Positions 21,340 to 60,699 of a stretch of DNA of 64,000 nucleotides are shown here, piece by piece. The notes under the pieces are model-generated. The model was not told the DNA's origin and made no database searches. It was given only the letters and a program-made list of their open reading frames with translations. Within the stretch, counting starts at the first letter, position 1. Each line of letters starts with the position of its first letter. The position numbers were made by a program, and so were the translations under genes. Origin of the DNA: Naegleria gruberi. Its lineage: Eukaryota. The DNA lies in the NCBI GenBank assembly GCA_000004985.1, contig GG738892.1; one strand, written 5' to 3'.

Positions 21340-21402
21340 AGATTAAATTTTAAAATAAGGGAAAATTCACTAACTAAATTGTTAATATTAAAATTAATTG
21401 CT

Positions 21403-24400: not shown

Positions 24401-25801
24401 TCTGAAGGATCGATAACTAATCTCCATTCGAATCTTGATTCTCCCTCGATACCTCCCTTGAATGAGCTTGTGGCCTCTATTGTTTCTCCTTCCATCACTG
24501 TACCAATAATGTCAAGAGAAGAACAGTATGGCTTTCCAGCTAATACTTCTCCAGTAGTATCCTCAAAAGAAATGAGTTTGTTGGTGTGTTGCTTGAAAAC
24601 AAGAGAAGCACCTAAAGTAGTTGAAATATCATCAAAGACAGCTATATAACAAGTACCAACAGCTCCATTATACCAAACAATTTCAATTTTGAAACTTGAT
24701 CCCTCAGATGGTACTTGATTGACATCAGCAGATATTACCTCGGATCTTCCTGATTCGTTAGCAAAGTAAAATGAATGTGGGCCAACAGGAACTAGTAAGG
24801 TAAGTTTTTCTTCTGCAACCACATCAAAAGAAGCCAAATGCTCATTCTTCTCAAATACAATCTTTGACCACTTTCCTTCTGGAACATCAATTTCTAAAAA
24901 TCCCATTCCTAATGCCTCAACTGAGTAATCTTGATTTGTATCTACCTTAAAAACAGGGAAGAATCTTACTTCTTCCTCTTCTACAGGATTTTGACAATCA
25001 AAACAATAGTTTAACAAATGGAATGGTGTTCCTTTTGAAATTTGCCTTTGAGCATCAAGAAGCCAATCTTTTGAAAAAGCTTTTAACTTTTCAAACTCTT
25101 CAAATTCTTCTTCATAAGGAATTAATAAACCTAGCAATACTGATTCTGAAATTGTTCCTCTATAATTTGCTGCATTTTCAAGAGTCTCATCGCTAAGCAG
25201 TTCTCTATTCAATGATCTCAATTTACTGAATAGAGCTATGGCTATCTCTTTGAACTTGTTAATTTCTACAATTGGGTTATCTGAGAGATCTAAAGAATCA
25301 AGCTCTTCGAATGATTTTACATTTTGAAAGTTCTTAATACGATTATTTGGAGCACTAAAAGCTCTTAATTTAGGAAGAGCAGGACCGTCCCATTCACTGA
25401 TCGAGTTGTTTCCAAGAATTAAGGATTCCAATTCCTTGAGATTTGGCATGGACATGAGAGAAGTAATCTTATTATGTGTCAAAAATAAATGTTTAAGAAC
25501 TGGCATATAAGACAAGAAGGATAAGTTCTCAATATTATTTGAACTCAAATCCAATACTCTCAACAATGGAAATTCAACTTGAATATTTAAAGTTTTTGGT
25601 AAATCTCCATTTCTGGCATACAAATATTCATATCCAAATAGTTCATTAAAATCAAAGGTTCCCAATTCTGTATTACTAATATTCAATTTCTAATTTGTTC
25701 AATCGTTAAAGCATCATAAAATTGTTTTCACTTACCTTTACAGTTTCCACTTTCTTTGGTTGAGAAGAAAGAGCCTTTTTCTTCATTGGAGATTCCGGCA
25801 T
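21403..25801 (-). CDS. AIR9-like protein: N-terminal SDS22-type leucine-rich repeats followed by about 9-11 tandem Ig-like A9 repeats
   Basis: Two exons: complement(25736..25801) encodes MPESPMKKKALSSQPKKVETVK. A 46-nt GTAAGT...TAG intron spans 25690-25735. Then complement(21403..25689). The ORF-track start at 25686 is a TTG. LRR block LDLSSNNIENLSFLSYMPVLKHLFLTHNKITSL. The repeated approx. 100-aa unit carries [FY]xGGhEGxSxxxW (YSGGFEGESRFEW, FTGGIEGECTFQW, YYGGFEGNSEFEF, YEGGTEGLTIINW, YYGGIEGSSMKRW, YYGGIEGKSIIQW). Confidence 0.65.
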
Positions 25802-26028
25802 CTTCTTAGATCCTATTAACGAAGAGAAGGTAAATAAACGTCTTGAGACTTGATGATAACAAACCTTGAGGTGCTATTGTTGGAGGCATTTTTTTATTTT
25901 AAAAATTGTATTTTGGTTTGGCGGGAGAAATACTGAAGTCATTTAAGATCTGTCTTAATTTGTCAACGAGAATCAAAAAGTACGAGATTGGTTGATAACA
26001 ATGTTTAATTATTCTCAATAATATTACT

Positions 26029-27425
26029 TTATTGCTTTTGGTTTGTTTGTGGTGGGTGTGCCATCTGTTGTGTAGCTTGTTTTTGCTGTTCTGCTACCAT
26101 CTTTACAAACTTTTCAAAGTAAAAAGTACTACCATTGTGAACCATAACTATGAAAATGTTAATATTTCAATAAAATCCAATAAAACATACCAATATAAAT
26201 AGCAACAAGACAGAATGCATGGAAATAAATATATCTAAACATGAAAATTACAGGTAAAACAGTTAAACTATGATAGAATAATTGGAATGCCATAAAAGCA
26301 AATAATCTGGTGGTTGCTGAGAATTTTTGTCCAAGCTCTATTCAAACATGTTTGTGAAATATCCTTAGAAAATACTTACTGTAAGACTTTGATTTTTTAT
26401 CCATTTCTGTAATCCATCTGAAACTTGTAATGACATGAGATCTTTCCTTCAAGATATTTCTATCAATATGTTCAGTTTTGATAAAATATGAAATTTGCCA
26501 GAATAAGAAGAAGAGAAGATGAGGAACTATTACTTCAAACCATGTAACTTCACAATTTTCTCTAATACAGACAGAATATTCAGGGAATTGTTCAGGATAC
26601 CATCTAATTGCAAATGAAATAAGTGGAGGGAATGTATGAATAAATGCAGAAGTTAACTTATCAAAATCATGGAAAACAAGTGAATTTCTCCTATTTAAAA
26701 TTACAATTAACAATCATCTCTTTAAACTTACCAAAAAACAATTGCCAATAAGATAGGTCCACAATTATTAGCAAATGTTAAAACAAACAAATGAGGACTA
26801 GTTGGGAAGAAGAATAAGAAGAACATTAATGCCAAATTTCCCATATAACAGAAATCAATCATAAAATACTTTTGAAATTCAATGATATCGTTCGGAATTG
26901 AATTACGTAATACTTACGTGAGCATGTTGAGAGTGGAAATCAATGAAACGATAAATCATCAAAGGAATCATCCACAAAATGTACCAAATAGGTAAATATT
27001 TTGGAGAATGTCCAAAAAGATAGGTTGTACTAACAAGAAGAAGAACACCAACAGTGAATGCAACTATAGAATTTTGGAAATTACAATCTCGGAATGTTGT
27101 ACTTACTCTTGTCACTAAATGAAACTGAAAAATTAGGAAGATTTTTCAAGCTAATATGTGATCAATTATTATTTAATTATTACTAATAAACATACATTTT
27201 ATATCTCTTTCTCAAGCTTGATGAAACATTTACAAGTGTTGATGAAGGTTTTGGAGTTGCTTGTTGTGGTCCTTGTTTAGGAGATGATGAAGTTGTTGTT
27301 GTTGTGTTATTATTATTTGTTGTTGTTGTTGTTGTTGGAGTTATTGTTGCTGTTGTTACAGGATCTTGTTCTTGCTTCTTTTCTTGTTTACTTTCCTTCT
27401 TCTTTTTAGTTTGTTGTTGTGACAT
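26029..27425 (-). CDS. Multi-exon polytopic membrane protein (about 5 exons, at least 6 TM helices), unknown family
   Basis: Exons reconstructed on the minus strand: 27425..approx. 27198 (MSQQQTKKKKESKQ...poly-Thr...LRKRYK), approx. 27128..26903, approx. 26870..26730, approx. 26690..26342, approx. 26325..26200, and 26029..approx. 26155. They are linked by 40-70 nt GTA(A/T)GT...AG introns. Boundaries are approximate. Hydrophobic segments include IVAFTVGVLLLVSTTYLF, LPIWYILWMIPLMIY, LALMFFLFFFPTS, VIVPHLLFFLFWQISYFI and LTVLPVIFMFRYIYFHAFCLVAIYIG. Confidence 0.35.
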
Positions 27426-27504
27426 TTTTTGAGGAGCAACTCCGTAGCAGAAATAAGGAAAGCAAGTGAAATGGATAAAATAGTTGTTGTTTTTATTGAT
27501 ATTC

Positions 27505-30500
27505 TTAAAAGAAGAATGTGGCTTGATTCAGCTCTTGGATGGATCTTAAAATATTATCAGAGTTAGTACCAATTTGACGAGCTAAATCTCTTTGTAAAAT
27601 TGTGTTAATGTTTGCATAATTCCAAATCAGTTGACCATCAATGATATTCTTCTTATAATTGTATTCAGTACGTTCGAGTGGCTTGTATAATCTGAAAGAT
27701 TTTGGATGTAACCCTGCTGCTTGTTCCAATTGTGTGTACATCTTTAACTGTAAGGCAAATAATCTTCTGTGAGTTACTTCGTTAATTGGAGCAACATAAC
27801 CAATAGCACCATCTACGCTTCCAAATAATATAAATTGGTGATTAGGATTAGTTTTTGTGATATCCTTTTTACCTGATTGTTTTGGTTTTTCATTTACATT
27901 ACCCAATCTAATGGTGTTATCGTCAGGTAATTCTCTTACTTTCATTCTTATAAGGCTGTTAATAAGGGTACCAATGTGGAAATCACAAACTGGGACCAAA
28001 TTTCTACCATCGTTACTTTCTTGATGCTGAGGCAGATAGGAGAAGATTTGAAGATTCTTACTAGTGTCAATAACTGCCAATCCAAGTAAATCATTATTCA
28101 CAAGGAATTCTGAAGAGACAACTTGAAGTGGTCTGTTATCTTTGGCAAGAAGAATTAATCTGTGACCCTTTTCCTTCCAACGTAAAAAGCTTACGCTCTT
28201 ATAGATATCACCAAACATGATAAAGTTTCTAACAGTATTTAAACTTGCAGTATAAAATTGAGTGTCATAGAAAGATGTAATATGCATTCTCTTTTCTTCC
28301 CAATCAAAGTAGTACGTATAAATACGATTACCAACACTACAAATAATATATCTGTCAACTTGTTCAAGAGTTGTAATTGGTCCTTTAACAGATGTTGAAG
28401 AAATTAAATTCAACTTATACTCATTTTCTCTTCCAAGAATTGGATCCAAATCAAATAATAAAAGTCTTCCTCTACATAATTCTCTTTCACTTTGTACATA
28501 GGCTGTTCCTACAGCAACTACAGAAACCAAGTCTTGCTTTCTGCTGTTCAATGGCTCTTCAAATGATATATCAGTATCGTCATTATATTCTTCCTTAGAC
28601 AAATAAACTACCTTTGCTGCCACAGCAGACTCATGAAGATCAAATTCAAACTTGTCCATTTCTTGCCAATTGTGTCCTGAAAATAATTTTACAGTGTGCT
28701 TTTGTTCGGCTGGAGGAGGGCATTTACCCTCAGGGAAAGGAATACTATCAGGTAAAATGGCCTTTACAGGAACAGATGTGAAAGCTAAACAAGTATTAGT
28801 ATCTTGATGGAATGTAATAACGTTAGGAGTACTCTTGAGCAAAATCTTTCTTTGTGGCCAGTAGGCGTTAAATTTAACATTAGCATTCAAACTTGAAATG
28901 TGTAACTTTGATTGTTTCTTATTATCTTGTTCTTTGTCTGTTAAATAAATAAAACCATGAGGACAGTTTTCGTGGTGATATGGTGTGAAGGTAGTAACAG
29001 GATCTCTACTTTGTGTTGGATGTACTCTGAGGTTAGAGTGTTCTGTAAATAACCAAAAAGGTTTTTCACCAGTTTTGAATAAACCTCCATAACCTCCAAT
29101 GTTTTTGAATGGAATAAGTTGGGATCTTCCTAGATCTGATTTTGGAAATAAATATTTAGATTTAAGATTGAGGGTAAATGTTTGACTCTTCTTGTCAATT
29201 TCAGATATTGGTAATAAATCGTCGTGTTGGAATTTAGAGAATCTTAGTCTTGTTAATCTGTTATCTTTGGATTTTGTTGTTCTATCTAAAAATGATCTAT
29301 AGATATGTACAGTATTATCGCTCAATACAGAAACAAGATATGGCATCTCGCTATCTGAGCCAATTCCTCTTAAAGCCATTTCTGTAACATATGGATACTT
29401 GACTTCAGATTGTGTAGTATTACTTGATTGTCCTTCATCAAACAGAGTTGTGTGGAATTGATAAAATTGAGAGAATGAGAATACACATGTCATATCTGGA
29501 ACAGATAAAATCTCGAAAGCACCATCAGTCCAATATACACAACATAAATATTTGCCTTCTTTTTCATTGATTCCAAAAAATTCAAACTCTGGATTGGTCT
29601 TGTACAGACATACTGCTGTTATCTTTCCATGATTAGATTCAATATCAAGTTGTTTGCTTGTCACTCTTCCGTTATCATGGGTGAGTAAAACTAAACTTCC
29701 ATCATAAAAATGAAGTAGGACATAAGGATCTAATATTATGGAAGATCTTATTTCCTTCTTGGAATGGTGAACTTGCTTTGGTTCAGATCCAATAAGCATT
29801 ACGCTTTTACGAGTTACTTGCACTATAGATTCTCTTATTTTACCAATATTCAAAGTTGTTTCATTTGTAACAAACATTGATTTTGACGTTACTTCAGCAA
29901 GGGTTGCCTTGGATTCAAATACTTTAGTCTTATCTTCTAAACTTAAAATTAAATACAAATCATGTTCAGTTTTTTGGGAAATAGTCCAAACTTGCTTGAC
30001 TAAAAATGGTAGAGTAGCTTCTGATTGAATATCAGGTTGTAGACTTCTATTCAAAACGGTCAAACAACCATGTCTACCAATACCAGAACAAGCAATAGCA
30101 GAAAGTTGATTATCGTTTGTTTTAGACTTGAATCCTGACATATCAAAAGAAGAAGTAACAGCTGCTGTCAAGTGTGATATTGGACCAATATTTGTAAAAA
30201 CATGTTTGATTTTGAGTTCTACCTTTGTTGTTTCTTTCTTAGAGACCTTGGAAAAGGATTCTATTACTGTTGGTTCTTCATCCTTTTCTAAAGCAGCAAA
30301 AAAGTCATCATCATCAGCTAACTTTCTCTTCTTTTTCTCTGGTTCAAAGTTTTCTCCAGCAGCAAAAACGGATGACATTTCTTCATCAGTATCCAAACTA
30401 CTAGTTTCCACCTCTACTTTTTCTTGATATTCATAAAGAACTGAATCACCAATCTTGGATCCAAGGAAAATAAGATTTCCTTTCAAAGTACACATGCAAG

Positions 30501-31626
30501 AGGCTGGTGTTGTGTTGGATGTCTTCTTGATGTTGATATTATTAATTCTACTTCCTCCAGACTCTAAATACATTGTATAAAGCTCACCATCCTTCAAAGA
30601 AACTAAAAGTTTATCCCTTGCTATGAAAGTGTATGCAACTGTATCAAAGAAGAGTGCAGGCCCATCAAAAGTATTAAAGTTAATTGATAAATTAGGATTC
30701 GAAACAGCAAAATCGTTGAAGGATAATCCATAAGTTGCACATTGATTAATATGAATGATAGAATTCATTCCAATAACCAATGCTCCACCAGCAACATCCT
30801 CTTGTAATGGAATCAATTTGTTACAGTCATGTGGTAATGATCCAACACTCCAAATCTTAGGATAATACTTTCTAAATAAATCGAATGATACAGCTGTCAC
30901 AGTTGATGTATTACTCTTAGCTGCAAGTCTACCACTCCAAGTTTGTTCATTCTCGTGCAAGAATAAAATTGTTGGTTCATTGTATCCATTCAAAAAGCAA
31001 TAGTCTTTCACATTTTTAATTCCTAGATCGTTTAAATCGATAATTACTTGTCTTTGCACTTCTGGTTGATGATGTTTTTTTTGATCTCCAACATTTTCAT
31101 TTGCTTCCTCTTGATCCCCAGAAAGAGCAAATAAAAAGTTATCCTCAGTTGAAAGTGATACATCCTCTCCAGATTGTCTGAATGGTAAAATTACTAATTT
31201 AGAGTCGCAAATAATTACTGTAGCAAATCTATTTTGTGGATCCAAAATAATTGGTTGATTGTGAAAGAATCTAGCTTTACCTTCTCTCAAAAAGTCATCT
31301 TCGAGATAATGCAAAGATAAAGTTTTAAGATCACTCCTCTTCTCATCAAACTCCACAACAGATACTTTTGCTTCATCTTCAAAGTTAATTAAAAGCATTT
31401 CCTTTTTCATACCCTGAAGACAAACAGCAATTATAGAATCAATTACTCCAAATAATTCAAAAACTTTTACAAGAACAATATTGGATGTATTCGGTTTGAT
31501 TAAATAAACCTCCATAATGTTGTTTTTAACAATGATCAGATTTTCATCATTAGCTGATGTAAATCGTGCCTTCAAACAGAATGACACAGCTGTTGGAGGA
31601 TGAAGCTGTTTGTAGCACGCGAACAT
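27505..31626 (-). CDS. CPSF1: Cleavage and polyadenylation specificity factor 160-kDa subunit (CPSF1/CPSF160; WD40-like beta-propeller + CPSF_A)
   Basis: Intronless 1373-aa ORF. The N-terminus MFACYKQLHPPTAVSFCLKARFTS aligns to my recollection of the metazoan CPSF1 start ([24 protein letters not shown]). Length and propeller-like periodicity fit the CPSF1/DDB1/SF3B3 family. Confidence 0.8.
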   Translation of the reverse strand: MFACYKQLHPPTAVSFCLKARFTSANDENLIIVKNNIMEVYLIKPNTSNIVLVKVFELFGVIDSIIAVCLQGMKKEMLLINFEDEAKVSVVEFDEKRSDLKTLSLHYLEDDFLREGKARFFHNQPIILDPQNRFATVIICDSKLVILPFRQSGEDVSLSTEDNFLFALSGDQEEANENVGDQKKHHQPEVQRQVIIDLNDLGIKNVKDYCFLNGYNEPTILFLHENEQTWSGRLAAKSNTSTVTAVSFDLFRKYYPKIWSVGSLPHDCNKLIPLQEDVAGGALVIGMNSIIHINQCATYGLSFNDFAVSNPNLSINFNTFDGPALFFDTVAYTFIARDKLLVSLKDGELYTMYLESGGSRINNINIKKTSNTTPASCMCTLKGNLIFLGSKIGDSVLYEYQEKVEVETSSLDTDEEMSSVFAAGENFEPEKKKRKLADDDDFFAALEKDEEPTVIESFSKVSKKETTKVELKIKHVFTNIGPISHLTAAVTSSFDMSGFKSKTNDNQLSAIACSGIGRHGCLTVLNRSLQPDIQSEATLPFLVKQVWTISQKTEHDLYLILSLEDKTKVFESKATLAEVTSKSMFVTNETTLNIGKIRESIVQVTRKSVMLIGSEPKQVHHSKKEIRSSIILDPYVLLHFYDGSLVLLTHDNGRVTSKQLDIESNHGKITAVCLYKTNPEFEFFGINEKEGKYLCCVYWTDGAFEILSVPDMTCVFSFSQFYQFHTTLFDEGQSSNTTQSEVKYPYVTEMALRGIGSDSEMPYLVSVLSDNTVHIYRSFLDRTTKSKDNRLTRLRFSKFQHDDLLPISEIDKKSQTFTLNLKSKYLFPKSDLGRSQLIPFKNIGGYGGLFKTGEKPFWLFTEHSNLRVHPTQSRDPVTTFTPYHHENCPHGFIYLTDKEQDNKKQSKLHISSLNANVKFNAYWPQRKILLKSTPNVITFHQDTNTCLAFTSVPVKAILPDSIPFPEGKCPPPAEQKHTVKLFSGHNWQEMDKFEFDLHESAVAAKVVYLSKEEYNDDTDISFEEPLNSRKQDLVSVVAVGTAYVQSERELCRGRLLLFDLDPILGRENEYKLNLISSTSVKGPITTLEQVDRYIICSVGNRIYTYYFDWEEKRMHITSFYDTQFYTASLNTVRNFIMFGDIYKSVSFLRWKEKGHRLILLAKDNRPLQVVSSEFLVNNDLLGLAVIDTSKNLQIFSYLPQHQESNDGRNLVPVCDFHIGTLINSLIRMKVRELPDDNTIRLGNVNEKPKQSGKKDITKTNPNHQFILFGSVDGAIGYVAPINEVTHRRLFALQLKMYTQLEQAAGLHPKSFRLYKPLERTEYNYKKNIIDGQLIWNYANINTILQRDLARQIGTNSDNILRSIQELNQATFFF

Positions 31627-31780
31627 TGTATTGGAAATTTTTTTAATTTATTTTTATTAAAATTTATTTGTTGTGATGAAGTTTTTCTGTGTTGAAAGGC
31701 TTGCATTGATTGTTTTCTTCTTGAAATAAATTTAGAAAACAACACATTCAACTATTTACATAGCAATAACAGAGTTTAAT

Positions 31781-34207
31781 TTAAAGTTCGGAATAGAACT
31801 TGTAGAGCAATTCTCTAACTTGGAAATAGGTTGGACTCAGAGAACCAAAAACTTGAATTTCTCCAGACTTTTTATCCTTTTGCAACATGACTTCATCATT
31901 GCAAACAAGAACACCTCCTTGTTGGAACTCAGCTGACAAGCCACTTTCTTTCAATAATTTGAAGAATTGATTCAACTTTAAATCACCAATGAGCATTGTT
32001 GGATGGCCCTTTGGTTTTGGATTTGGGTGAATGCAAGGAATATCGCTGCCTTCTTCAACTCTATAGATACCTTCAATATAAGCCATATCATAATTAGTAC
32101 CACTCTTAATATAATGAATTTGACTTAATAAATCTTGTTTCAGCTTGACTTTAAACATGTTGGTATCCATTGTCATGTCCATAACTTCTAGATCCATTGG
32201 AGTTTTGATTTGTTCTGAAATTTTCTTAGTTTCACAATAATCTGAAAGCTCAATAATTGATTCTTGAGATCCGTGAATTAAAATTAGTTTTCTAGGGTTA
32301 ATCTTTTGTAAAATATTCTTGATGTCTACAGGAGAGGATCTTCCTTCAAAATCTAAATAAGCTAATTTACAAAGAATTCTTACACTGACATTTTCAGATT
32401 CAATCTTAGATGGAGGTTCATAATAATCTTCTTCTTCATGAATAGTATTGTCAGCCATTATTTGTTCACTTTGATCTGCTTGAAGCAATCTAAGTTTGAA
32501 ATCTTCAGGGTCAACTGACTCACCATACTCATCTTTAGAAATACCTCTTTCAATACATGGAAACATCAAATATTGTGAATGATAACGCATATTCTCAGGT
32601 AGGTAAAGTCTGGCATGAGTTTGAGAATCATCATCAGCACCTCCTGTTAATTCTTCTCTGAATTGTTTCGATTTCTTCAAGTCCAAATCTTCATCGTCTT
32701 CATCTCTAACGTGAATAACTCTCTTATTTCTTTCTTCTTCTTCTCTTCTTTTCTTTTCAGCTTCTTGTTTCAATTGTTGTTCTTTTTCATATTTTTCCAA
32801 TTCTTCTCCTTTGAGAGCAACTCTACGATACAATGTTAAACTCATATTTTCGTCTAATCTTTCTGATTTTTTAGCTCTTAACTTGTTAATCAATTTTCTT
32901 GATAAAGAGTTAGGAGCAGACCTCTCAATAAACATAACCAAATTTCTTTGATCCTCACACCACTTTACAAATAGTTCTCTAGCATATCCGTAATCTAAAG
33001 TATTTGAAGAAGCCAAAACAACCATAGGTGTATGTTTTCCAGTAGTAGCTGTTTCTTCATCTTCGTCATTCATTTGATTTTCCATCATCATTCTCATTTG
33101 TTCTTTCTTTTGTAACTTGTCCATTAATTCTTCAACATTGTGACAAACACTAAAATATTGGAATTTAAATGGATTTTCACGTTTTTCATCGAATCCCTTC
33201 ATAATTTTATCACTCATCCATTCCAGTTGATGGGATGCAAATTCTATAGTTCTGTAAGCAACATTTGTCAATAAAATCAATTCAAAATTAGCCATTTGGG
33301 GATCTCTTTTCCATCTTTCTTCCAAAAGTAACATTAATTCGAAAACTCTACCAGCTGTCTCAATTGGTACAAGAACGTTTCCTCCACCGGTTAAGGTATC
33401 TGTTATTGATTTCATAATCTTGATTGCTGGTGCCTTATCTACCCCTCCAAGATCTGAGCTTGGAATAGGTTTCACATTGTATGCATCTGTGATTAAAAGA
33501 GCTGGTTTACCACCAAGTTCTCCTAATACAGACCCATTCAAATGTCTTTCTGTTTTGATGTTAAAATCTATGGCATATACAATTTCATCTGTCTCCTTTG
33601 TTAATTTCCAAATAGTACCACCTAGTGTGTGACCGGCTAAGAATGGACAAATGACTAGTTTCTCACCTTCCATTTCTGCAACAGATCCTGATGATCCAAC
33701 AACACCACCTTCACCTTCTTCTCCATTCTCATCGGTTTCTTCAATTTGTGTTATTATTGTTGTTTGTTGTGACAATGGATATCTTTGACTATATTTTAAT
33801 TGATGAATAGAATCAAAACAAAGATCTACATCATCCAAGTCAAATGTTTCAAAATCTTGATGTTGTCTTATATTTTGGTAAGCATCATAAAGATGCATTT
33901 GGCCCATTTTAACAATAGGTAATGTTGCAAATATTTTAGCCTTCTTCTTATTTTCCAAAATACCACATTTACCAACAAGATATGGTAAAGCACCACAGTG
34001 GTAAATATCACTTTGGGAAATTAAAATAGCATCAATTTTATCCCGATAATTGTTGATAATTTCTTGAATATGTGAATCCTTTGTATTAAAATTTTCATCC
34101 CATCCACAATCCAACAAAATATAATAATCATCAACAATTAATATCGAACAAACAGGTCCTTCATTTTGTGATCCAACAAGAGGAACAAATTGAATCGAAC
34201 TGCTCAT
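31781..34207 (-). CDS. CPSF2: Cleavage and polyadenylation specificity factor 100-kDa subunit (CPSF2/CPSF100; metallo-beta-lactamase / beta-CASP / RMMBL)
   Basis: Intronless 808-aa ORF. MSSSIQFVPLVGSQNEGPVCSILIVDDYYILLDCGWDE matches the CPSF2 N-terminus (…LLDCGWDE block, as recalled). An acidic insert and C-terminal CPSF100_C-like region are present. Confidence 0.8.
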   Translation of the reverse strand: MSSSIQFVPLVGSQNEGPVCSILIVDDYYILLDCGWDENFNTKDSHIQEIINNYRDKIDAILISQSDIYHCGALPYLVGKCGILENKKKAKIFATLPIVKMGQMHLYDAYQNIRQHQDFETFDLDDVDLCFDSIHQLKYSQRYPLSQQTTIITQIEETDENGEEGEGGVVGSSGSVAEMEGEKLVICPFLAGHTLGGTIWKLTKETDEIVYAIDFNIKTERHLNGSVLGELGGKPALLITDAYNVKPIPSSDLGGVDKAPAIKIMKSITDTLTGGGNVLVPIETAGRVFELMLLLEERWKRDPQMANFELILLTNVAYRTIEFASHQLEWMSDKIMKGFDEKRENPFKFQYFSVCHNVEELMDKLQKKEQMRMMMENQMNDEDEETATTGKHTPMVVLASSNTLDYGYARELFVKWCEDQRNLVMFIERSAPNSLSRKLINKLRAKKSERLDENMSLTLYRRVALKGEELEKYEKEQQLKQEAEKKRREEEERNKRVIHVRDEDDEDLDLKKSKQFREELTGGADDDSQTHARLYLPENMRYHSQYLMFPCIERGISKDEYGESVDPEDFKLRLLQADQSEQIMADNTIHEEEDYYEPPSKIESENVSVRILCKLAYLDFEGRSSPVDIKNILQKINPRKLILIHGSQESIIELSDYCETKKISEQIKTPMDLEVMDMTMDTNMFKVKLKQDLLSQIHYIKSGTNYDMAYIEGIYRVEEGSDIPCIHPNPKPKGHPTMLIGDLKLNQFFKLLKESGLSAEFQQGGVLVCNDEVMLQKDKKSGEIQVFGSLSPTYFQVRELLYKFYSEL

Positions 34208-34396
34208 TTTTTTTAAATTTGTATTTTAATATTTTATTAATCATGGAAATCAGAGCACTTTAAAACAATTTCAAGGAGGAACCTGTTGTCTACAGTTCTG
34301 TCTTGTTTCTTCTAGAGCAACAACAAGATAAAACCAGACTTCCTAACCCCATCTTCAAAAAACAAATTAATTTTTAATTTTTAATATTTTTAAAAA
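34208..34396. promoter_or_regulatory. 189-bp bidirectional promoter region shared by CPSF2 (minus) and CstF-77 (plus)
   Basis: Start codons at 34207 (minus) and 34397 (plus) face away from each other. The spacer is AT-rich and otherwise featureless. Inferred from gene arrangement only. Confidence 0.4.
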
Positions 34397-36749
34397 ATGT
34401 CCAGAGACAGGTATGCTGATCAAGATGATGACTATGAACAATCATCGGGTGGCAAAAACGACAAGATACAAAGTGCTGAAGCAAGAATCGAACTTAATAA
34501 GTATGACACAGAAGCTTGGACCGTAAGTAACAACAATCTAAAACAAATTTTCTAACATGTCATCATTAGATTTTGTTGTCAGAAGTACAAGAAATGAGCA
34601 TCATCCAAGCAAGACCATACTATGAACGATTTTTTGAAATATATCCAGTAGCTGTAAGTAATGATATTAGTGATTAATATTAACCTTCCATCAGGCAAGA
34701 TATTGGAAAATATATGCTGAACATGAATTAAAAGCAAAGAACCATACTCTAGCTGAGGAAATATTTAAAAAGGCATTGGATGCTTGCCCTAACTTTGAAT
34801 TGTGGAGATTTTATTTGGATTATATTAGGGAACATAAAAGAAATGATGTGGATACAATTCGTAAAGCCTTCGATATTTGCAAAGAAAAGGTTGGGCTTGA
34901 TATTTCAAGCTCAACTCTATGGATTGACAACATTAAATTCATAAAAGATCTTAAAGCAACTGATCAAAATGATATTCAAAACCAAATCAATCTTTTGAGA
35001 AGTCTCTATCAAGAAGCTATTCAAATTCCTATGCATGATATCGAAAAGATTTGGAAAGATTATGAAATTTTTGAAAATGAAGTCAACCCAACCAATGGGA
35101 AATCAACTCTTCAAGAATTTGCTCCAAAGTTCAAATTGGCTCTCAATAAGTATAAGGAAAAGAAAAATATCAGAGAAAATATGGGTGGAGTAGGAGGTTT
35201 ATTATTAAATATGTTGGCGACACCACCAACAAACTCTGAGAAGGAAAGATCACAAAAACAAATCTGGAAGGATTTAATAGAACTTGAAAAGAGAAATTCA
35301 CAAAGACTAACAGCTGATGAACTCAAAAGAAGAGTTCTTTTTGTTTATAGTCAATGCTTCCTCTGTTTTAGACATCATCCTGATATTTGGTATGATGCTG
35401 CTAATTATTTGATTTCTATTCAGTGTCACGATGAAGCAACAATAGTTTTTCAACGTGGATGTAACGCATTATTACCTGTTCCAAAATCATTGGATGCCAA
35501 TCAATCACAAGAGGGAAGTATTTTACTCCATCTTGCATTTTCAGAATATTTGGAATCAAGAAAGCTCTTTGACGAAGCAGCTAAAGTTTTCAAAACTCTT
35601 ATCACATCAAAACATGACCCTCTAGTTTTTATTCAATATATCAGATTTATGAGACGTACCAAAGGAACAGAAGGAGCTAGAGAAGCATTTATTGAAGTTA
35701 AAAAATCTCCAAAATGTACATACCATGTGTGGGTTGCATCAGCTCTTCTTGAATATACTACTAACAATCAACCAGAGACTGCAAGAAAATTTTTCAAACT
35801 AGGTCAGAATCAACCATTCGGAAAAGAACCAGGTTTTATTCTTGAATACTTAAAATTCCTAGACCATCTAAATGATAAGAATAACTCTAGAGTTCTTTTT
35901 GAAACAATTCTTAATGAATTACCAAAAGAACAATCCTCTGAAATATGGAATAGATTTTTACAATTTGAATACTCAATAGGCGATTTGAATTCGATAGAAA
36001 AGGTTGAACAAAGAAAACTTGCAGCCTTTTCAGAGAATGCTGAAAATAATACACCTTCTAATAGTGGTTTCGAAAATACAGTCAACGCTACCAACAGCCT
36101 TATAAATCTCATCAATAGAAGCAAGTTTTTAGATTTATGGCCTTGTACACCTAGTGAAATGGAGTTACTCAATTTGAAAGCACAAGAAAGCGAGAAAGTG
36201 CCAACAGAAGACGATATCCATATCAAATATTCTAAATCATTTTATCGTGTTGATTACACAAAGCAAATCATGTTTACAAACACTAGACAACAAAATCAAG
36301 GCTCAGTAGATAAACTCAATAGTAATCGTACAGCACCTCCAACAGTTTCTCTCCCTCCAGAATTCAACAAATTTAGACAATACCTTAACCAAAAGAGACT
36401 TTTCCTTCCGGATTTTAAGCAAATGTGTGAATTCAAAGTTATTCCAAACCATGTCTCACAATCTAATTCATCCCTTCCCCTAGTAACAGTACATGATGAG
36501 CAAGTAATTCCTCATACAGTACTTCAGATTTTAAGGAGAATGCCTCAACAACATTTTGCTGTTATTCCTCCAGATTATGTTATTAATGCATTGATGACAA
36601 CTCCACTTCCACCCCCACCTGAATCAGATCTTAAAAGAGGTAGAAATGAATATGAAAATGTTGATTATGACCAAGAGTATGATGATGAAGGTCCAGCAGA
36701 TAGAGCCTATGATGATATTTACACAAAGAGAAGAAAGCAAAGGAAATAA
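34397..36749 (+). CDS. CSTF3: Cleavage stimulation factor 77-kDa subunit (CstF-77 / CSTF3 / Suf / RNA14 family; HAT-repeat protein)
   Basis: Three exons: join(34397..34522, 34570..34653, 34695..36749). Introns are 47 and 41 nt (GTAAGT...TTAG / ...TCAG). Exon-1/2 peptide ...KYDTEAWT|ILLSEVQ... parallels metazoan ...KYDLDAWSILIREAQ. Later blocks HHPDIWYDAANYL, VFIQYIRFMRRTKG, DKNNSRVLFETIL, EIWNRFLQFEYSIGDL and FLDLWPCTPSEME match conserved CstF-77 segments as I remember them. Confidence 0.8.
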
Positions 36750-36957
36750 ATTCTTCTTTTTAATTAAGAATCTTTATATGAAGCACCTGATTTGAACAAA
36801 CGACCCCGTAACAGCTTCAAACGTAATCTTCCATTTCCAATTCGATCACTTCCTCAACACCTTGCTCGCATTTCAATAAGGAAGCCAAAGATAGAAACAC
36901 TTCATTGGGCCGACCAGAGAAATCTTTTACCAACAATCCACCCCACAGAATAAAAAA

Positions 36958-38973: not shown

Positions 38974-39019
38974 ATATTTAACATTAATAAATTAAATATA
39001 CAAATTTTAAAAGTTTAAT

Positions 39020-39857
39020 TTAAACAAGTCTGGAATCAATATCACCATAGAGCATCTTACGAAGTTCTGGCAGCTTTTGTTCTTGACACAAATAAACACG
39101 CTTTTCTAAAGTGTTATCAATCTTAATCAAGTCATTCTTTGAGTGAACAAGAACACCACCAGCAGCGTTGGCAGCCAAGTAGTTCTTCTTTTGGACAGTG
39201 ATTTTAACATCCATGTTAGTCTTATTCTTATAAGCAGTTTGAACACTAGCCATTTGAGAGGCAACCAATTCGTAATCTTGTTCTCTGCAGTATACGTTAA
39301 GTTCGGAATCAAGGAAACGGAGAGCAGCTTGCAAGACCAAATCGTGCAAAAGCTTCTTGTACACATCCTTGTTGAGAATAGCCTTCTTAATTTGTTCCAA
39401 AGCTTCAGCAACCATATCCTTCAAAATTTCTTCCTTCAATTTCAAAATTTCCAAACGAGCAGATTTAATTTCGTTTGAGTGATCGATTTTCTTTTTTATA
39501 ATAACTTGTTGTTCCTTCTTGTTATAATCTTCTCTGATTTTCTTTTTACCATCTTCAACGAGGTTTTGTTTTTCAATGGCAAAGTCTTCTCTGGTTTGGA
39601 GTTCAATTTCATCGGCCTTTTCCTTGGCTTCACTCTTGATGAAATTAATCATTTGAGCGATTTTGGTGTCATTGCCTGTTGTTAAATATTGTTGTTAGTG
39701 GTGAAAAAGAGGATTAGAAGAATGTAACGAAGAGAGTAATGTTATTGTTATTTCATGAATAGTTGTGTAATAACAAGTTTAAAATAATACTAGTATTGGC
39801 ATCATGGATGTTGAAAAACTATTCTAACATACCTTGGGTTGGTAAAGCTCTGCTCAT
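39020..39857 (-). CDS. vatE: V-type proton ATPase subunit E
   Basis: Two exons: complement(39833..39857) encodes MSRALPTQ-, then a 157-nt intron (GTATGT...AACAG), then complement(39020..39675). The joined N-terminus ...GNDTKIAQMINFIKSEAKEKADEIELQTREDFAIEKQNLV matches the V-ATPase E consensus (…[32 protein letters not shown]…). Confidence 0.8.
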
Positions 39858-47467: not shown

Positions 47468-47470
47468 AAT

Positions 47471-59600: not shown

Positions 59601-60694
59601 AACCAACCTATTTGTCACAAGATTACTACTCTTTGTTTGTTTCTGAGGCTAACACATTTGATATCTACAGTCCAAAATCTGCTCAAGCTTTAACTGTTCA
59701 ATATGATTCTTGTGATTCTACTTCAATTAAAGATACTCTCAAGGTTTTCATTGGTAAGAATAGAATTCCAACTTCACAAGATTTTGATCAAGTTGGTGTT
59801 GCCAGAAATAGATATTCAAGCAACATTGTAGTACAAAGTGCTGTTCCAAAAGCCAATTACTATGTTACCACTGTTGGTACATCTCCACAATTCTTCTCTC
59901 TCTTTACTACTACCTCCAGTCCTGATCCAAGACCAGAAGCTGTTCCATTCACTGTTAAGCCAACAAATACTGTTTCAAAGGATGGTAAAACTCAACAAGA
60001 ATACAGTGTTTCCATCGATGTTCCAAAGAGTAAGGACCACACCACCTTCTATAAGGTTGTTGCATATGGTTTGAGTGAAAAGCATAAAGGACAATCCGAT
60101 GAACAAGTTATGTCAAGCCTCAACTTCCACACTCTCTGCGCCATTAATTCCAAGTCAAATTTACAGACCGTTGGTTATGGAAATAGTTTGAGTTCATCAT
60201 TGACAATGTCTTTGTTTGCTGATGAAGATTACATTGTTAATATTATTACTTCATATGGTGAATCTGGTCAACTTCAACAAGTTTCTACTCCAATAATTAT
60301 CAGAAGAAATGATAGTGCTGTAAGCCCAGGTGGTATTATACTTCTCATCCTTGTTATTTTGGTTGTTTTGTATTTGTCTATTGGTTCTATTGTCAAGGTT
60401 GTTAAATATAAGGCTAGAGGAGCTGAAATTATTCCAAATACTGGATTCTGGAAAGAAGTTTTCAGCTTATTCTGGGAAGGTTGCCAATTTGTTTTCTTGT
60501 GTGAAATGTTCAGACGTCGTCAAACTTCTGAATATGACACTATGGATGAGGAAGGTGTTGCAGAGGATAACTCAATTAATAACCCAGACGCTTATCAAAA
60601 TAATGGTGAACAAGATGATGATGACGATGATATTAACCCATTTGCTCATTCCACAAGACAAACTCCAGAAAATGGCTACACAACCATTATTTAA
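53639..60694 (+). CDS. Giant (2351 aa) type I membrane protein built of about 18 tandem PPC (bacterial pre-peptidase C-terminal)-like beta-sandwich repeats, with a single C-terminal TM helix and acidic cytoplasmic tail
   Basis: Intronless ORF. N-terminal signal/TM (LMVTLILFILTLIGCVLS). About 110-aa periodic units each carry [GS]GD[AP]D[ILM][YF][VI]S...P......Y.W.S (LSGDADIYVSTTGAPDFTNPNTYQWKS; MLGDPDIFVSRLYQYPNSSACEWSHS; ISGDADMYISTNQLVDRANYKWKA; FSGDADLFIANKPQASESNF; LTGDPDAYLSTNPKPSTFSFMWSS; NQGDGDLYVSTKTNRPTDKNYQWHS; YPSDCDFFVSMTPYPTKNHYTWKS ...). C-terminal TM GGIILLILVILVVLYLSIGSIV, then basic stop-transfer and a D/E-rich tail. Confidence 0.8.
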   Translation: MNRNLRPSTQVVVDGKLMVTLILFILTLIGCVLSEVVIPINQAQEGHVEAGNSVIYKFENIPELATDNSTLSFIVTTLSGDADIYVSTTGAPDFTNPNTYQWKSVIQDGTDTVTLSKTTEGYKSGGPYYVAVNGFQGPAMYTIIGLHSDNHVKVVQGFPQNVFVGSGQYVYFSYDVTSNGLFTISVTSLYGEANLYVSTTNQKPDASSYNYKKESLGDDFLSITHSGEVPTTYYIGIKGDHSSQTQFSLQITSPDVQDIIADGIPLYARLYSRSTTYYKFFLSKVVQDLTITADRRTMLGDPDIFVSRLYQYPNSSACEWSHSLHGTSSIQISEPEHLYPGWFYIAIHDDSVFSTDYALYISSTFAHTRLSNGLPLSKQLIGYKTDYYAYYVEPNNLGGFTTLDIFVTSASGVPLNVYGSTINRYPNENSHDLVGTFNGASFVLHKDDSPSGMYYVAVTSTTNSNYTIVVSSANRFIELVDTVQYSYTVNKRDYRKFVLPISDNSVDVSFSLSTISGDADMYISTNQLVDRANYKWKAASYARNELIHIAANDPLRHSPEFDGSLYVAVYGYAASSFSIVAYLHTGQPIELESGVPVYGVLENDMSSQNYKYYLSTTRDLRIVVQPGSESHDPDIYVSRTNPNPGPSSYDYRSISVDDDVVSIPSAQPGNYFISVYTFFPNTSYILTVSAGSMELRTFGIPIIDTVAKGQTKDYYSILSTENFVIGVTLIDGNTNLKITNNTFTKSDNGYPGNYVSLSASEITEVGTWKTSVYGVEDSTYYIHASSLSFQAELKVGLPVIGEAFCCGETGSLFAYNGILVSNTDYLVYVNSLYGEDSFTAVYVDQYPNTNPTPTSHKWSAQGSDDLIVKLPANQLDVVKSLYISVYSYRGLARFHVTLEQSGAPIFLTSDSPNYVFGNPDQSDYFKVMSLRNSAGLNAVLESCNDLEAAPFYVSNINPQPTQNNSYVSQADGKFRQIITTTKSETNTFYYIGTSKLQHALPYTMFATTGTDKRPIPKNNGVLIPGPLMSVNSKRISVPSVEGDSQGVSYLVYKRILTPQEDPANVNMQTLCAIKEEAQLVGEIATPPSGADFVDYDVPVGFNERSVINVIAKNSYGVSSAYKPIFIGIDNNDYLIDGVSLLSSTNETNRCSQFIFTATLLDTETVSFIVTPFSGDADLFIANKPQASESNFVYASRNHGFDIVSFTKGDPKYFPGPYYIGVCGLNDGITEFSIIASTSNNPIKLKDGQPQLMTTKTLDYSYFTFDLEGSDDFTVTVTPLTGDPDAYLSTNPKPSTFSFMWSSEQSAVEIINVKSSDNQFKPDVTYHLSIFAFSADTIYSVVITRNTSISTLMHGVSMGGRVQSPYSSYYRFKLTHPSNVTITVNPLNSLGDPDIFVSTHDNNQYPDFLHHDFYAFSRSVDTLTIKTTDQGWRMGWYYIAVAGYREQTEFEITVSSSDEVIVLEDGVSLTTSSYVDEWKYYAFFYGFDANSLTFSVRLGTGMRSEMVCSKTNSHPSRDKYDFLGENTGAELLAVIPEKSSIGWYYCGVHTFTASDYSITAFTNQRARLLQDATMSTNNNVRAKYYVYFTYTLPPFVNMTDINIVAYMNQGDGDLYVSTKTNRPTDKNYQWHSTSSVNENLVIAKSDIGSDSRELFIGVHGWSNALFDIVVYGLDTVLDLKENSPVLGDSQSNSYKRYSFKLENRGVLRIDLSVLSAYPSDCDFFVSMTPYPTKNHYTWKSDKFGDDTLQIDEAEAGTYYISVYTTFIASSKFSLTVSSAYSLVNDGGQILDFVDSGAVRRYKILIPEQAASISITTVGINGRTVMYASNNETFPTKDYFVASSDTVHGNGILVLKSDSIFATGVWTVSVYGITPASFYLSYQTSQGILRAGVPRVGITTLTNTAKYLLPISSAQPLSISARVFDVVNDCIMVNAYQNPSVKASAKSDPRINNGVLLEYAQISSTQLLTVEVSACSNRVQYEIVVAAKDQPTYLSQDYYSLFVSEANTFDIYSPKSAQALTVQYDSCDSTSIKDTLKVFIGKNRIPTSQDFDQVGVARNRYSSNIVVQSAVPKANYYVTTVGTSPQFFSLFTTTSSPDPRPEAVPFTVKPTNTVSKDGKTQQEYSVSIDVPKSKDHTTFYKVVAYGLSEKHKGQSDEQVMSSLNFHTLCAINSKSNLQTVGYGNSLSSSLTMSLFADEDYIVNIITSYGESGQLQQVSTPIIIRRNDSAVSPGGIILLILVILVVLYLSIGSIVKVVKYKARGAEIIPNTGFWKEVFSLFWEGCQFVFLCEMFRRRQTSEYDTMDEEGVAEDNSINNPDAYQNNGEQDDDDDDINPFAHSTRQTPENGYTTII

Positions 60695-60699
60695 ATAAA

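What the first reader, a model, noticed from the sequence alone, without database searches (positions are those of the whole stretch)
31627..31780. CPSF2 terminator and CPSF1 promoter compressed into 154 bp: the machinery's own poly(A) site sits on the next subunit's promoter
On the minus strand the CPSF2 stop (31781) is followed by AATAAA-containing sequence (…acaaataaattttaataaaaataaatt…) only tens of nucleotides before the CPSF1 ATG (31626). Inefficient 3' cleavage of CPSF2 would therefore read through into CPSF1. This gives a built-in feedback: low CPSF activity produces readthrough transcripts of a CPSF subunit gene. Autoregulation of 3'-processing factors through their own poly(A) sites is known in metazoa (e.g. 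CstF-77 intronic poly(A) site). The tandem arrangement here is a different possible implementation.
Basis: inference. Interest (0 to 1): 0.5.

Follow-up and report, generated by a model that had tools for sequence, protein, structure and literature searches.

The report
Ordinary compact junction between two CPSF genes
In the amoeba Naegleria gruberi, the genes for two subunits of the mRNA 3'-end cutting machinery sit head-to-tail only 154 bp apart with poly(A)-signal hexamers just before the second gene's start, but such tight junctions are normal in this genome and nothing here points to a self-regulating device.

Summary
The window is Naegleria gruberi. CPSF100 (CPSF2, 31781-34207, minus strand) and CPSF160 (CPSF1, 27505-31626, minus strand) are separated by 154 bp. 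Three AATAAA hexamers, not two, lie 42, 32 and 26 nt before the CPSF1 ATG. AAUAAA is the experimentally established N. gruberi poly(A) signal (PMC11529991). In this window it is about 17-fold purged from coding sense strands.

That is the typical position for this species, whose median 3' UTR is 39 nt. N. fowleri and N. lovaniensis carry an AATAAA overlapping the stop at the same place. Neither has an AATAAA near the CPSF1 start.

Tandem spacers of 36-150 bp are common in these genomes, and PAS-like hexamers are common just upstream of ATGs, including CPSF2's own divergent promoter. So the compression is genome-wide. The distal cluster is not conserved, and a feedback role is neither supported nor testable here; its sign would also be wrong for homeostasis. 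No transcript data could be reached.

More notable is a lineage-conserved cluster: CstF77 (divergent), then CPSF100, then CPSF160. Interest is low to moderate.

The parts
31781..34207 (-). CPSF100 (CPSF2) coding sequence, 808 aa, no intron
   Evidence: ORF. Pfam matches Lactamase_B_6, Beta-Casp, RMMBL and CPSF100_C. It is 100% identical to an N. gruberi protein in NCBI. Human CPSF2 scores E=1.8e-135.
27505..31626 (-). CPSF160 (CPSF1) coding sequence, 1373 aa, no intron
   Evidence: ORF; Pfam. It is 100% identical to the N. gruberi 'CPSF A subunit'. Human CPSF1 scores E=1.6e-158 versus 1e-25 for DDB1. The N-terminal coding sequence aligns from the ATG onward in three species, while the sequence upstream does not align.
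31627..31780 (-). 154-bp spacer holding the CPSF2 3' UTR and poly(A) signals and the CPSF1 promoter and leader
   Evidence: GC is 22%. There is no Rfam match and no significant RNA structure (z = -0.78).
31775..31780 (-). Stop-proximal AUUAAA hexamer; candidate proximal poly(A) signal of CPSF2 with predicted cleavage around 31765-31755
   Evidence: N. fowleri and N. lovaniensis have an AATAAA overlapping the stop at the same place. The same TAAATTAAAC context ends the vATPase-E gene at 39020, which has no AATAAA within 160 nt. The cleavage position is inferred from the 15-20 nt rule in PMC11529991.
31735..31752 (-). G/U-rich tract GUUGAAUGUGUUGUUUUC; candidate downstream element of the proximal site
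   Evidence: The 40 nt after the proximal hexamer are 50% T and 70% G+T, the highest G+T among the stop-proximal hexamers of the window. G/U-rich tracts lie at a comparable offset in N. fowleri and N. lovaniensis. This evidence is weak, because such tracts are not rare.
31642..31668 (-). Cluster of three AAUAAA and one AUUAAA, 42 to 16 nt before the CPSF1 ATG. Candidate distal or fail-safe poly(A) signals of CPSF2 (predicted cleavage about 31653-31627), and/or the A/T-rich promoter or leader of CPSF1
   Evidence: AATAAA is about 17-fold depleted in sense coding sequence, so it is a potent signal. The downstream sequence is not U-rich (T 27-35%). The cluster is absent in N. fowleri and N. lovaniensis. 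Similar hexamers occur upstream of ATGs that have no co-oriented upstream gene.
31627..31641 (-). A-rich leader immediately before the CPSF1 ATG
   Evidence: Positions -15 to -1 before start codons are 61% A across 35 genes of four genomes. A-runs precede the CPSF1 ATG in all four tandem species.
34208..34396 (.). 189-bp divergent spacer between CPSF100 and the CstF77 (Suf/Rna14) gene; a likely shared bidirectional promoter region (context, outside the finding)
   Evidence: The head-to-head pair is kept in N. fowleri, N. lovaniensis, a metagenomic relative and Willaertia magna.
34397..36749 (+). CstF77 (Suf/Rna14) gene, CDS join(34397..34522, 34570..34653, 34695..36749); its stop codon overlaps an AATAAA
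   Evidence: Pfam Suf, E=7.7e-112. Exons and introns were read from the sequence and from comparison with N. lovaniensis and Willaertia. The AATAAA starts 2 nt before the stop codon.

Best explanation
This is an ordinary tail-to-head gene junction of the compact Naegleria gruberi genome. It is not a dedicated regulatory device. The 154 bp must hold both the 3' end of the CPSF100 mRNA and the core promoter and short A-rich leader of CPSF160.

Inferred model:
1. CPSF100 transcripts are cleaved mainly about 20-25 nt after the stop, directed by the AUUAAA that abuts the stop codon and the G/U-rich tract behind it. This is the species-typical geometry, and it is the position used (as a stop-overlapping AAUAAA) in N. 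fowleri and N. lovaniensis.
2. Polymerases or transcripts that escape this weaker hexamer meet three AAUAAA 26-42 nt before the CPSF160 ATG. These would act as a strong fail-safe stop.
3. The same A/T-rich block probably also belongs to the CPSF160 promoter or leader, as similar blocks do upstream of many genes here.

What is shown: the anatomy, the signal type used by the organism, the genome-wide commonness of such junctions, and the lack of conservation of the distal cluster. What is inferred: which hexamer is used, where CPSF160 transcription starts, and the absence of feedback.
For: - Organism and signal rules. [quoted passage not shown]
- Hexamer position. In the window and in related loci, the first AATAAA after a stop usually lies within 0-57 nt. 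CPSF2's, at +115, is an outlier, whereas its ATTAAA at +3 is typical.
- Downstream composition. G+T is 70% after the proximal hexamer; T is only 27-35% after the distal ones.
- Orthologues. N. fowleri has a 71-bp spacer and N. lovaniensis a 79-bp spacer. Both have an AATAAA overlapping the CPSF2 stop and no AATAAA or ATTAAA near the CPSF1 ATG.
- Genome-wide compression. Tandem spacers of 140 and 154 bp occur in the window, and of 36, 45, 49 and 53 bp in relatives. Convergent genes lie 3-78 bp apart.
- PAS-like hexamers are 2-3 times denser at -60 to -1 of ATGs than further upstream. They also occur where the upstream neighbour is divergent, including CPSF2's own 5' flank (AATAAA at -31, ATTAAA at -23).
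- AATAAA occurs 3 times in sense coding sequence against 52 +/- 6.6 expected, so the distal cluster would stop any transcript that reaches it.
- The spacer has no Rfam family and no significant fold.
Against: - No transcript ends were available, so the choice between proximal and distal sites is unproven.
- AUUAAA is only mildly avoided in coding sequence (43 observed versus 63 expected).
- No UGUA lies within 40 nt upstream of either candidate hexamer.
- In the metagenomic relative L003 the only AATAAA is 20 nt before the CPSF1 ATG. A poly(A) signal sitting on the next gene's start therefore does occur in this gene pair.
- At least three AATAAA in the spacer is reached by only 3-5% of shuffles.
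- The tandem pair, and the clustering of three 3'-processing genes, is conserved in the lineage. That leaves room for selected co-regulation.
Confidence: 0.62

Rival explanations
1. The distal AAUAAA cluster is the CPSF2 poly(A) site and lies on the CPSF1 promoter. When CPSF activity is low, transcription reads through into CPSF1, and the cell uses this as feedback on the machinery's own subunits.
For: - AAUAAA is the preferred and potent signal in this organism.
- The first AAUAAA after the CPSF2 stop is this cluster.
- Predicted cleavage lies 1-27 nt before the ATG (inference and PMC11529991).
- CPSF1 has no internal AAUAAA, so readthrough RNA would run to the end of CPSF1.
- L003 has its only AATAAA 20 nt before the CPSF1 ATG.
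- The tandem order is kept in four genomes.
Against: - The cluster is absent in N. fowleri and N. lovaniensis, where the signal overlaps the stop.
- Willaertia has no CPSF1 downstream of CPSF2.
- The tandem order sits inside a collinear block of more than 25 kb, so its retention needs no special selection.
- Equally tight junctions are common between unrelated genes.
- A triple AAUAAA is a strong stop, not a leaky one.
- Readthrough would reduce productive CPSF2 and CPSF1 expression when activity is already low. That is positive, not homeostatic, feedback (inference; contrast PMC3708835).
Confidence: 0.1
2. The AATAAA/ATTAAA block is only the A/T-rich (TATA-like) promoter and leader of CPSF1. 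It is never used as a poly(A) signal because CPSF2 transcripts are all processed at the stop-proximal site.
For: - Sense AATAAA, ATTAAA or TATAAA hexamers occur within 45 nt upstream of many ATGs, including genes whose upstream neighbour is divergent: CPSF2 at -31 and -23, the ankyrin gene at -34 and -9, and the gene ending at 2214 at -34.
- Their density is 2-3 times higher at -60 to -1 than further upstream.
- The sequence downstream of the cluster is not U-rich.
Against: - Much of the enrichment is explained by plain A-richness; positions -15 to -1 are 61% A.
- No Naegleria promoter element has been defined in the literature I could search.
- N. fowleri and N. lovaniensis CPSF1 lack such a block.
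- Given the strong purge of AAUAAA from transcribed sense sequence, any CPSF2 transcript that reaches the block would probably be cleaved there.
Confidence: 0.2
3. The junction is one edge of a selected co-expression module. CstF77, CPSF100 and CPSF160 are kept adjacent, through a bidirectional promoter and a tight tandem junction, so that the three scaffold subunits of the 3'-processing machinery are expressed together.
For: - Three 3'-processing genes lie in a row.
- The CstF77/CPSF100 head-to-head pair is kept in N. gruberi, N. fowleri, N. lovaniensis, L003 and Willaertia, even though the flanks are rearranged in Willaertia.
- Four unrelated metagenomic CPSF2 loci with long flanks have no Suf or CPSF1 neighbour.
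- Chance estimate for three of about 20 such genes being consecutive among about 15,700 genes: roughly 3e-5. This is my own estimate, it is post hoc, and the gene counts are from memory.
Against: - Within Naegleria the whole region is collinear, so adjacency there is uninformative.
- Only one genus outside Naegleria was available, and it has lost (or never had) the CPSF1 link.
- No expression data were available.
- Adjacency could be a neutral historical accident.
Confidence: 0.3

Closest known systems
Canonical AAUAAA-type poly(A) sites of N. gruberi, including dual-use stop codons (Genome Res 2024, PMC11529991)
   Same: The hexamers are the same (AAUAAA and AUUAAA). The stop-proximal position and a U/GU-rich downstream tract hold for the proximal candidate. 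The N. fowleri and N. lovaniensis orthologues have a true stop-overlapping AAUAAA.
   Different: In N. gruberi CPSF2 the stop-adjacent hexamer is the weaker AUUAAA and does not overlap the stop. The canonical AAUAAA appears only 115-131 nt downstream, about three times the median 3' UTR length. No UGUA lies at the expected upstream distance.
Overlapping or abutting transcription units in compact eukaryotic genomes (microsporidia, nucleomorphs, Giardia). The classic report is 'A high frequency of overlapping gene expression in compacted eukaryotic genomes', cited in the papers; its details are from my own knowledge.
   Same: The intergenic spacers are too short to hold a separate terminator and promoter. 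The 3'-end signals of one gene therefore lie in or next to the promoter or leader of the next.
   Different: Naegleria is a free-living organism with a roughly 41-Mb genome. It is less extreme than those cases, and multigene transcripts have not been documented for it in the literature I could search.
Autoregulation of 3'-processing factor genes through their own poly(A) sites: the CstF-77 intron-3 site (PMC3708835) and PCF11 intronic polyadenylation (PMC6428223)
   Same: A gene for a cleavage/polyadenylation factor whose own 3'-end signals might respond to the activity of the machinery.
   Different: Those sites are intronic, conserved and premature, so high factor activity truncates the mRNA (negative feedback). 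Here the candidate site is terminal and not conserved among Naegleria species, and failure to use it would lower output when activity is low. The N. gruberi CstF77 introns (47 and 41 nt) contain no AATAAA.
Bidirectional-promoter and neighbouring gene pairs that encode subunits of one complex (for example divergent histone gene pairs; from my own knowledge)
   Same: CstF77 and CPSF100 are head-to-head across 189 bp, and the pairing is retained across genera.
   Different: Co-expression was not tested. Such an arrangement for 3'-processing factors was not found in the searched literature.

Membership tests
CPSF100 (CPSF2) orthologue | Metallo-beta-lactamase, beta-CASP and RMMBL domains plus the CPSF100 C-terminal domain; best match is CPSF2 rather than CPSF73 or INTS11 | tested here: met
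   Pfam, including CPSF100_C at E=5.4e-17. Human CPSF2 scores 1.8e-135 versus about 1e-22 for CPSF3 and INTS11.
CPSF160 (CPSF1) orthologue | Three-propeller RSE1/DDB1/CPSF1 architecture; best match is CPSF1 rather than DDB1 or SF3B3 | tested here: met
   Pfam. Human CPSF1 scores 1.6e-158 and yeast Cft1 1.3e-45, versus 1e-25 for DDB1 and 1.9e-23 for SF3B3.
N. gruberi canonical poly(A) site (PMC11529991) | An AAUAAA (or AUUAAA) hexamer on the sense strand downstream of the stop | tested here: met
   ATTAAA at +3; AATAAA at +115, +125 and +131; ATTAAA at +136, counted from the first base of the stop.
N. gruberi canonical poly(A) site (PMC11529991) | Short 3' UTR (median 39 nt), with the hexamer 15-20 nt before the cleavage site | tested here: inconclusive
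   The proximal candidate fits, with a predicted 3' UTR of about 16-25 nt. The distal cluster would give 128-154 nt, an outlier among the genes of the window and related loci. The real cleavage site is unknown.
N. gruberi canonical poly(A) site (PMC11529991) | U-rich sequence downstream of the hexamer | tested here: inconclusive
   Proximal candidate: T 50% and G+T 70% over 40 nt. Distal hexamers: T 27-35%. The mean after stop-proximal AATAAA in the window is 44% T.
N. gruberi canonical poly(A) site (PMC11529991) | A UGUA element upstream of the signal | tested here: not met
   There is no TGTA within 40 nt upstream of any of the five hexamers. The single TGTA (31760-31757) lies downstream of the proximal hexamer and about 90 nt upstream of the distal cluster.
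N. gruberi canonical poly(A) site (PMC11529991) | Mapped untemplated poly(A) tails at the site | not testable with these tools
   The N. gruberi genome and transcripts are not in the contig look-up. The paper's supplements are not held.
Dual-use stop codon / poly(A) signal | The stop codon forms part of the hexamer | tested here: not met
   In N. gruberi CPSF2 the sequence is TAA followed by ATTAAA, which is adjacent but not overlapping. The feature is met in N. fowleri and N. lovaniensis CPSF2 (TAATAAA) and in N. gruberi CstF77.
Autoregulatory poly(A) site of a 3'-processing factor gene (CstF-77 type, PMC3708835) | The regulatory site is conserved across related species | tested here: not met
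   The distal AAUAAA cluster is absent from the N. fowleri and N. lovaniensis spacers, and the spacers do not align beyond the stop-proximal part.
Autoregulatory poly(A) site of a 3'-processing factor gene (CstF-77 type, PMC3708835) | Site use changes productive mRNA output in the direction opposite to factor activity (negative feedback) | not testable with these tools
   By inference the sign would be wrong, since readthrough at low activity lowers productive output. Testing needs perturbation experiments.
Polycistronic transcription unit (Euglenozoa or nematode type) | Long same-strand gene arrays with very short internal spacers and trans-splicing | tested here: not met
   The directon here has two genes, and the flanking genes are on the other strand. 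Heterolobosea average about 2 genes per directon without heavy tails (bioRxiv 10.64898/2026.07.29.740908). Trans-splicing was not tested.

The most novel reading that the evidence does not exclude
CPSF100 of N. gruberi has swapped its ancestral stop-overlapping AAUAAA for a weak AUUAAA and gained a triple AAUAAA on top of the CPSF160 start. Together these would form an activity-sensitive switch. At high 3'-processing activity the weak proximal site is used and the CPSF160 promoter is left free. At low activity, polymerases run on to the distal cluster or beyond, changing CPSF160 promoter firing and the CPSF100 3' UTR. With the conserved CstF77/CPSF100 bidirectional promoter, this would make a three-gene, self-sensing expression module for the 3'-end machinery.
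Probability: 0.07. Interest if true: 0.6.

Novelty: new member of a known kind. Interest (0 to 1): 0.25.

Why it matters
As it stands, the junction shows how a compact free-living eukaryote packs 3'-end signals and the next gene's start into about 150 bp or less. That is expected for Naegleria and changes nothing in the field.

It would matter only if transcript mapping showed that this junction behaves differently from other tight tandem junctions. That would be the first case of 3'-processing factor genes coupled through a terminal poly(A) site rather than an intronic one.

The better lead is the conserved CstF77-CPSF100-CPSF160 neighbourhood. I did not find it described. It could be checked quickly against published N. 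gruberi RNA-seq for co-expression.

Tried and rejected
1. Transcripts or contigs of N. gruberi itself, looked up by exact protein: nothing on record.
2. One metagenome scan with a CPSF2 alignment, to collect more heterolobosean junctions. It returned 18 loci, all at or below about 52% identity (best segment; mostly 27-45%). None was heterolobosean and none had Suf or CPSF1 next door.
3. A chimeric query (CPSF2 C-terminus plus CPSF1 N-terminus), to fish out short contigs that span the junction. It gave one internal CPSF1 fragment (L022) without the start, which was useless.
4. Supplementary 3'-UTR tables of PMC11529991 are not held.
5. The 1988 alpha-tubulin paper is held only as abstract and references. 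No paper defining Naegleria promoters or transcription start sites was found.
6. A structured RNA in the spacer: no Rfam hit in the whole window, and the fold is no better than shuffles (z = -0.78).
7. An intronic poly(A) site in the neighbouring CstF77 gene, as in animals. Its two introns are 47 and 41 nt and contain no AATAAA, so this was rejected.
8. Alignment of the spacers of four species. Only the stop-proximal part and the coding flanks align. I therefore do not claim that the G/U-rich tract is homologous.
9. A polycistronic reading was rejected on directon size.
10. A check of whether the ORF-poor stretch 25.5-27.6 kb matches the F-box/Ras gene that follows CPSF1 in N. lovaniensis: no tblastx match.

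Full report
**What the window is.** The 808-aa ORF at 31781-34207 (minus strand) is 100% identical to a Naegleria gruberi protein. The 1373-aa ORF at 27505-31626 (minus strand) is identical to the N. gruberi 'CPSF A subunit'. The window is about 30-36% GC with long, mostly intron-free ORFs packed closely.

**Gene identities.**
- Pfam gives Lactamase_B_6, Beta-Casp, RMMBL and CPSF100_C for the first protein, and the RSE1/DDB1/CPSF1 propellers plus CPSF_A for the second.
- The propeller family also contains DDB1 and SF3B3, so I compared both proteins with solved structures.
- Human CPSF160 scores 1.6e-158, against 1e-25 for DDB1 and 2e-23 for SF3B3.
- Human CPSF100 scores 1.8e-135, against about 1e-22 for CPSF73 and INTS11.

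**The observation.**
- The spacer 31627-31780 is 154 bp and 22% GC.
- On the coding (minus) strand there are three AATAAA hexamers (31668-63, 31658-53, 31652-47) and an ATTAAA (31647-42). They start 42 to 21 nt before the CPSF1 ATG.
- It is followed by a single TGTA (31760-57) and a G/U-rich tract, GTTGAATGTGTTGTTTTC (31752-35).
- In shuffles of the spacer, at least one AATAAA appears in 55-62% and at least three in 3-5%. The hexamer itself is expected from composition; the triplet is mildly unusual.
- No Rfam family matches anywhere in the window, and the spacer RNA folds no better than shuffles.

**Is AATAAA meaningful in this organism?** Yes.
- Direct RNA sequencing of N. gruberi showed that AAUAAA is the top poly(A) signal. 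[quoted passage not shown] The median 3' UTR is only 39 nt.
- The same study found UGUA upstream, U-rich sequence downstream, and 11-13% of stop codons overlapping the signal (PMC11529991).
- The window confirms the potency. In 49.6 kb of coding sense strand AATAAA occurs 3 times, against 52 +/- 6.6 expected from codon shuffles. Its reverse complement TTTATT occurs 102 times against 76 expected. ATTAAA is only mildly reduced, at 43 against 63.
- Neither the CPSF1 nor the CPSF2 coding sequence contains AATAAA.

**Which signal serves CPSF2?**
- In the window and in related loci, the first AATAAA after a stop normally lies within 0-57 nt. CPSF2's, at +115, is an outlier, while its ATTAAA at +3 is in the normal place.
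- The vATPase-E gene (39020-39652) ends with the same TAAATTAAAC and has no AATAAA within 160 nt.
- The 40 nt after the proximal hexamer are 50% T and 70% G+T, the highest G+T of the stop-proximal set. The distal hexamers are followed by 27-35% T.
- Against the proximal site: AUUAAA is the weaker hexamer, and no UGUA lies upstream of it.
- I therefore consider the proximal site the likelier main site and the triple AAUAAA a fail-safe. This is inference, and the odds are not far from even.

**Relatives.** The order CstF77 (divergent), CPSF100, CPSF160 is found in four genomes: N. gruberi, N. lovaniensis, N. fowleri and a metagenomic relative, L003.

| Genome | Locus | CPSF2-CPSF1 spacer | Position of AATAAA |
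|---|---|---|---|
| N. lovaniensis | L001 | 79 bp | overlaps the CPSF2 stop (TAATAAA); none near the CPSF1 ATG |
| N. fowleri | L023 | 71 bp | overlaps the CPSF2 stop (TAATAAA); none near the CPSF1 ATG |
| metagenomic relative | L003 | 49 bp | 32 nt after the stop and 20 nt before the ATG |
| Willaertia magna | L002 | no CPSF1 downstream | 6 nt after the stop |

- In L003 the predicted cleavage falls at about the CPSF1 start codon.
- Willaertia keeps only the CstF77/CPSF100 head-to-head pair.
- The spacers align only next to the stop.
- The distal cluster is thus specific to N. gruberi. The ancestral arrangement in Naegleria looks like a stop-overlapping signal.
- In every tandem species the CPSF2 poly(A) site must nevertheless lie within about 60-150 nt of the CPSF1 ATG.

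**Is the compression special?** No.
- In the window, tandem spacers of 140 and 154 bp and convergent spacers of 3, 5, 46, 63, 75 and 78 bp occur.
- In the relatives, unrelated tandem pairs are separated by 36, 45, 49 and 53 bp, one of them with an AATAAA 7 nt before the next ATG.
- Heterolobosea are reported to have about 2 genes per directon and similar intra- and inter-directon spacers, so there is no polycistronic organisation (bioRxiv 10.64898/2026.07.29.740908).

**Could the cluster simply be CPSF1's promoter or leader?**
- Sense AATAAA, ATTAAA or TATAAA hexamers are 2-3 times denser in the 60 nt before ATGs than further upstream. Positions -15 to -1 are 61% A.
- They occur where no co-oriented upstream gene exists, including CPSF2's own 5' flank (AATAAA at -31, ATTAAA at -23), which faces the divergent CstF77 gene.
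- The block upstream of CPSF1 therefore fits a general A/T-rich promoter or leader pattern. Both roles may coincide.
- I found no paper that defines Naegleria promoters or transcription start sites.

**The feedback idea.**
- Known autoregulation of 3'-processing factors uses premature, conserved intronic sites. High activity then truncates the mRNA, which is negative feedback (CstF-77, PMC3708835; PCF11, PMC6428223).
- Here, failure to cleave in the spacer would give a CPSF2 mRNA with a 4-kb 3' UTR and a non-translatable second cistron. Polymerases would also run through the CPSF1 promoter.
- Output would fall when activity is already low. That reasoning is inference.
- Combined with the lack of conservation of the distal cluster, and the fact that three AAUAAA make a strong rather than a leaky stop, I give the feedback model about 10%.

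**What is more notable.**
- Three genes of the 3'-end machinery lie in a row. CstF77 (Suf/Rna14) has the CDS join(34397..34522, 34570..34653, 34695..36749) and is divergent from CPSF100 across 189 bp.
- Within Naegleria the whole region of more than 25 kb is collinear: vATPase-E, transketolase-like, rhomboid/RRM and BRCT genes on one side and the AIR9-like gene on the other. Conservation there is uninformative.
- The CstF77/CPSF100 pair does survive in Willaertia despite rearranged flanks.
- Four unrelated metagenomic CPSF2 loci with long flanks show no such neighbours.
- The searched literature does not mention the cluster.

**Limits.**
- No RNA evidence was reachable.
- All statements about which hexamer is used, where CPSF1 transcription starts, and whether readthrough occurs are inferences from sequence, comparison and published genome-wide rules.

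**Verdict.** The regulatory part is unsupported. The junction is an ordinary feature of a compact genome, so interest is low, with a modest side lead in the conserved three-gene cluster.

Noticed in passing
window 27505-36749; L001, L002, L003, L023: Three mRNA 3'-end processing genes are adjacent: CstF77 (Suf/Rna14, plus strand), CPSF100 and CPSF160 (minus strand). The CstF77/CPSF100 head-to-head pair, with 189 bp between the ATGs here, is kept in N. fowleri, N. lovaniensis, a metagenomic relative and Willaertia magna. The CPSF160 link is kept in all of these except Willaertia. I did not find it mentioned in the searched literature.
   Followed up: partly
window, all ORFs of at least 120 aa (49.6 kb of coding sequence): AATAAA is almost absent from the sense strand of coding regions (3 observed versus 52 +/- 6.6 expected from codon shuffles). 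Its reverse complement TTTATT is enriched (102 versus 76 +/- 8.6), and ATTAAA is only mildly reduced (43 versus 63). Antisense transcripts would therefore meet a poly(A) signal about every 500 nt while sense transcripts meet almost none, a built-in strand asymmetry.
   Followed up: partly
window 47468-47470, 60695-60699, 38974-39019, 21340-21402: Convergent ORF pairs have stop codons only 3, 5, 46 and 63 bp apart. Their 3' UTRs and poly(A) signals must overlap the neighbour's coding end on the other strand. One example is the 2351-aa ORF ending TAAATAAA at 60694.
   Followed up: no
window 34523-34569 and 34654-34694: The CstF77 gene has two very small introns (47 and 41 nt, GTAAGT...AG) near its 5' end. 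The frame shifts fall at the same protein positions in N. lovaniensis and Willaertia. Neither intron contains AATAAA, unlike the intronic poly(A) site of animal CstF-77 genes.
   Followed up: partly
window and L001-L003, positions -15 to -1 of start codons: Start codons are preceded by a strong A-run (61% A; typically AAAAAAATG). AATAAA is tolerated there (for example AATAAAAAATG in four genes) despite its purge from coding sequence. This suggests very short leaders, or that cap-proximal signals are ignored.
   Followed up: partly
window 25687-27504: A stretch of about 1.8 kb between the AIR9-like LRR gene and CPSF160 has only small ORFs (26342-26713, 27183-27425). In N. lovaniensis and N. fowleri the gene after CPSF160 is an F-box/Ras(Roc) gene, but tblastx finds no similarity to it here.
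   Followed up: partly
window 36747-36752 and 27493-27498: The three clustered genes differ in their 3' signals. The CstF77 stop codon overlaps an AATAAA (dual use). CPSF160 has an AATAAA 10 nt after the first base of its stop. CPSF100 alone lacks an early AATAAA and has ATTAAA instead.
   Followed up: yes
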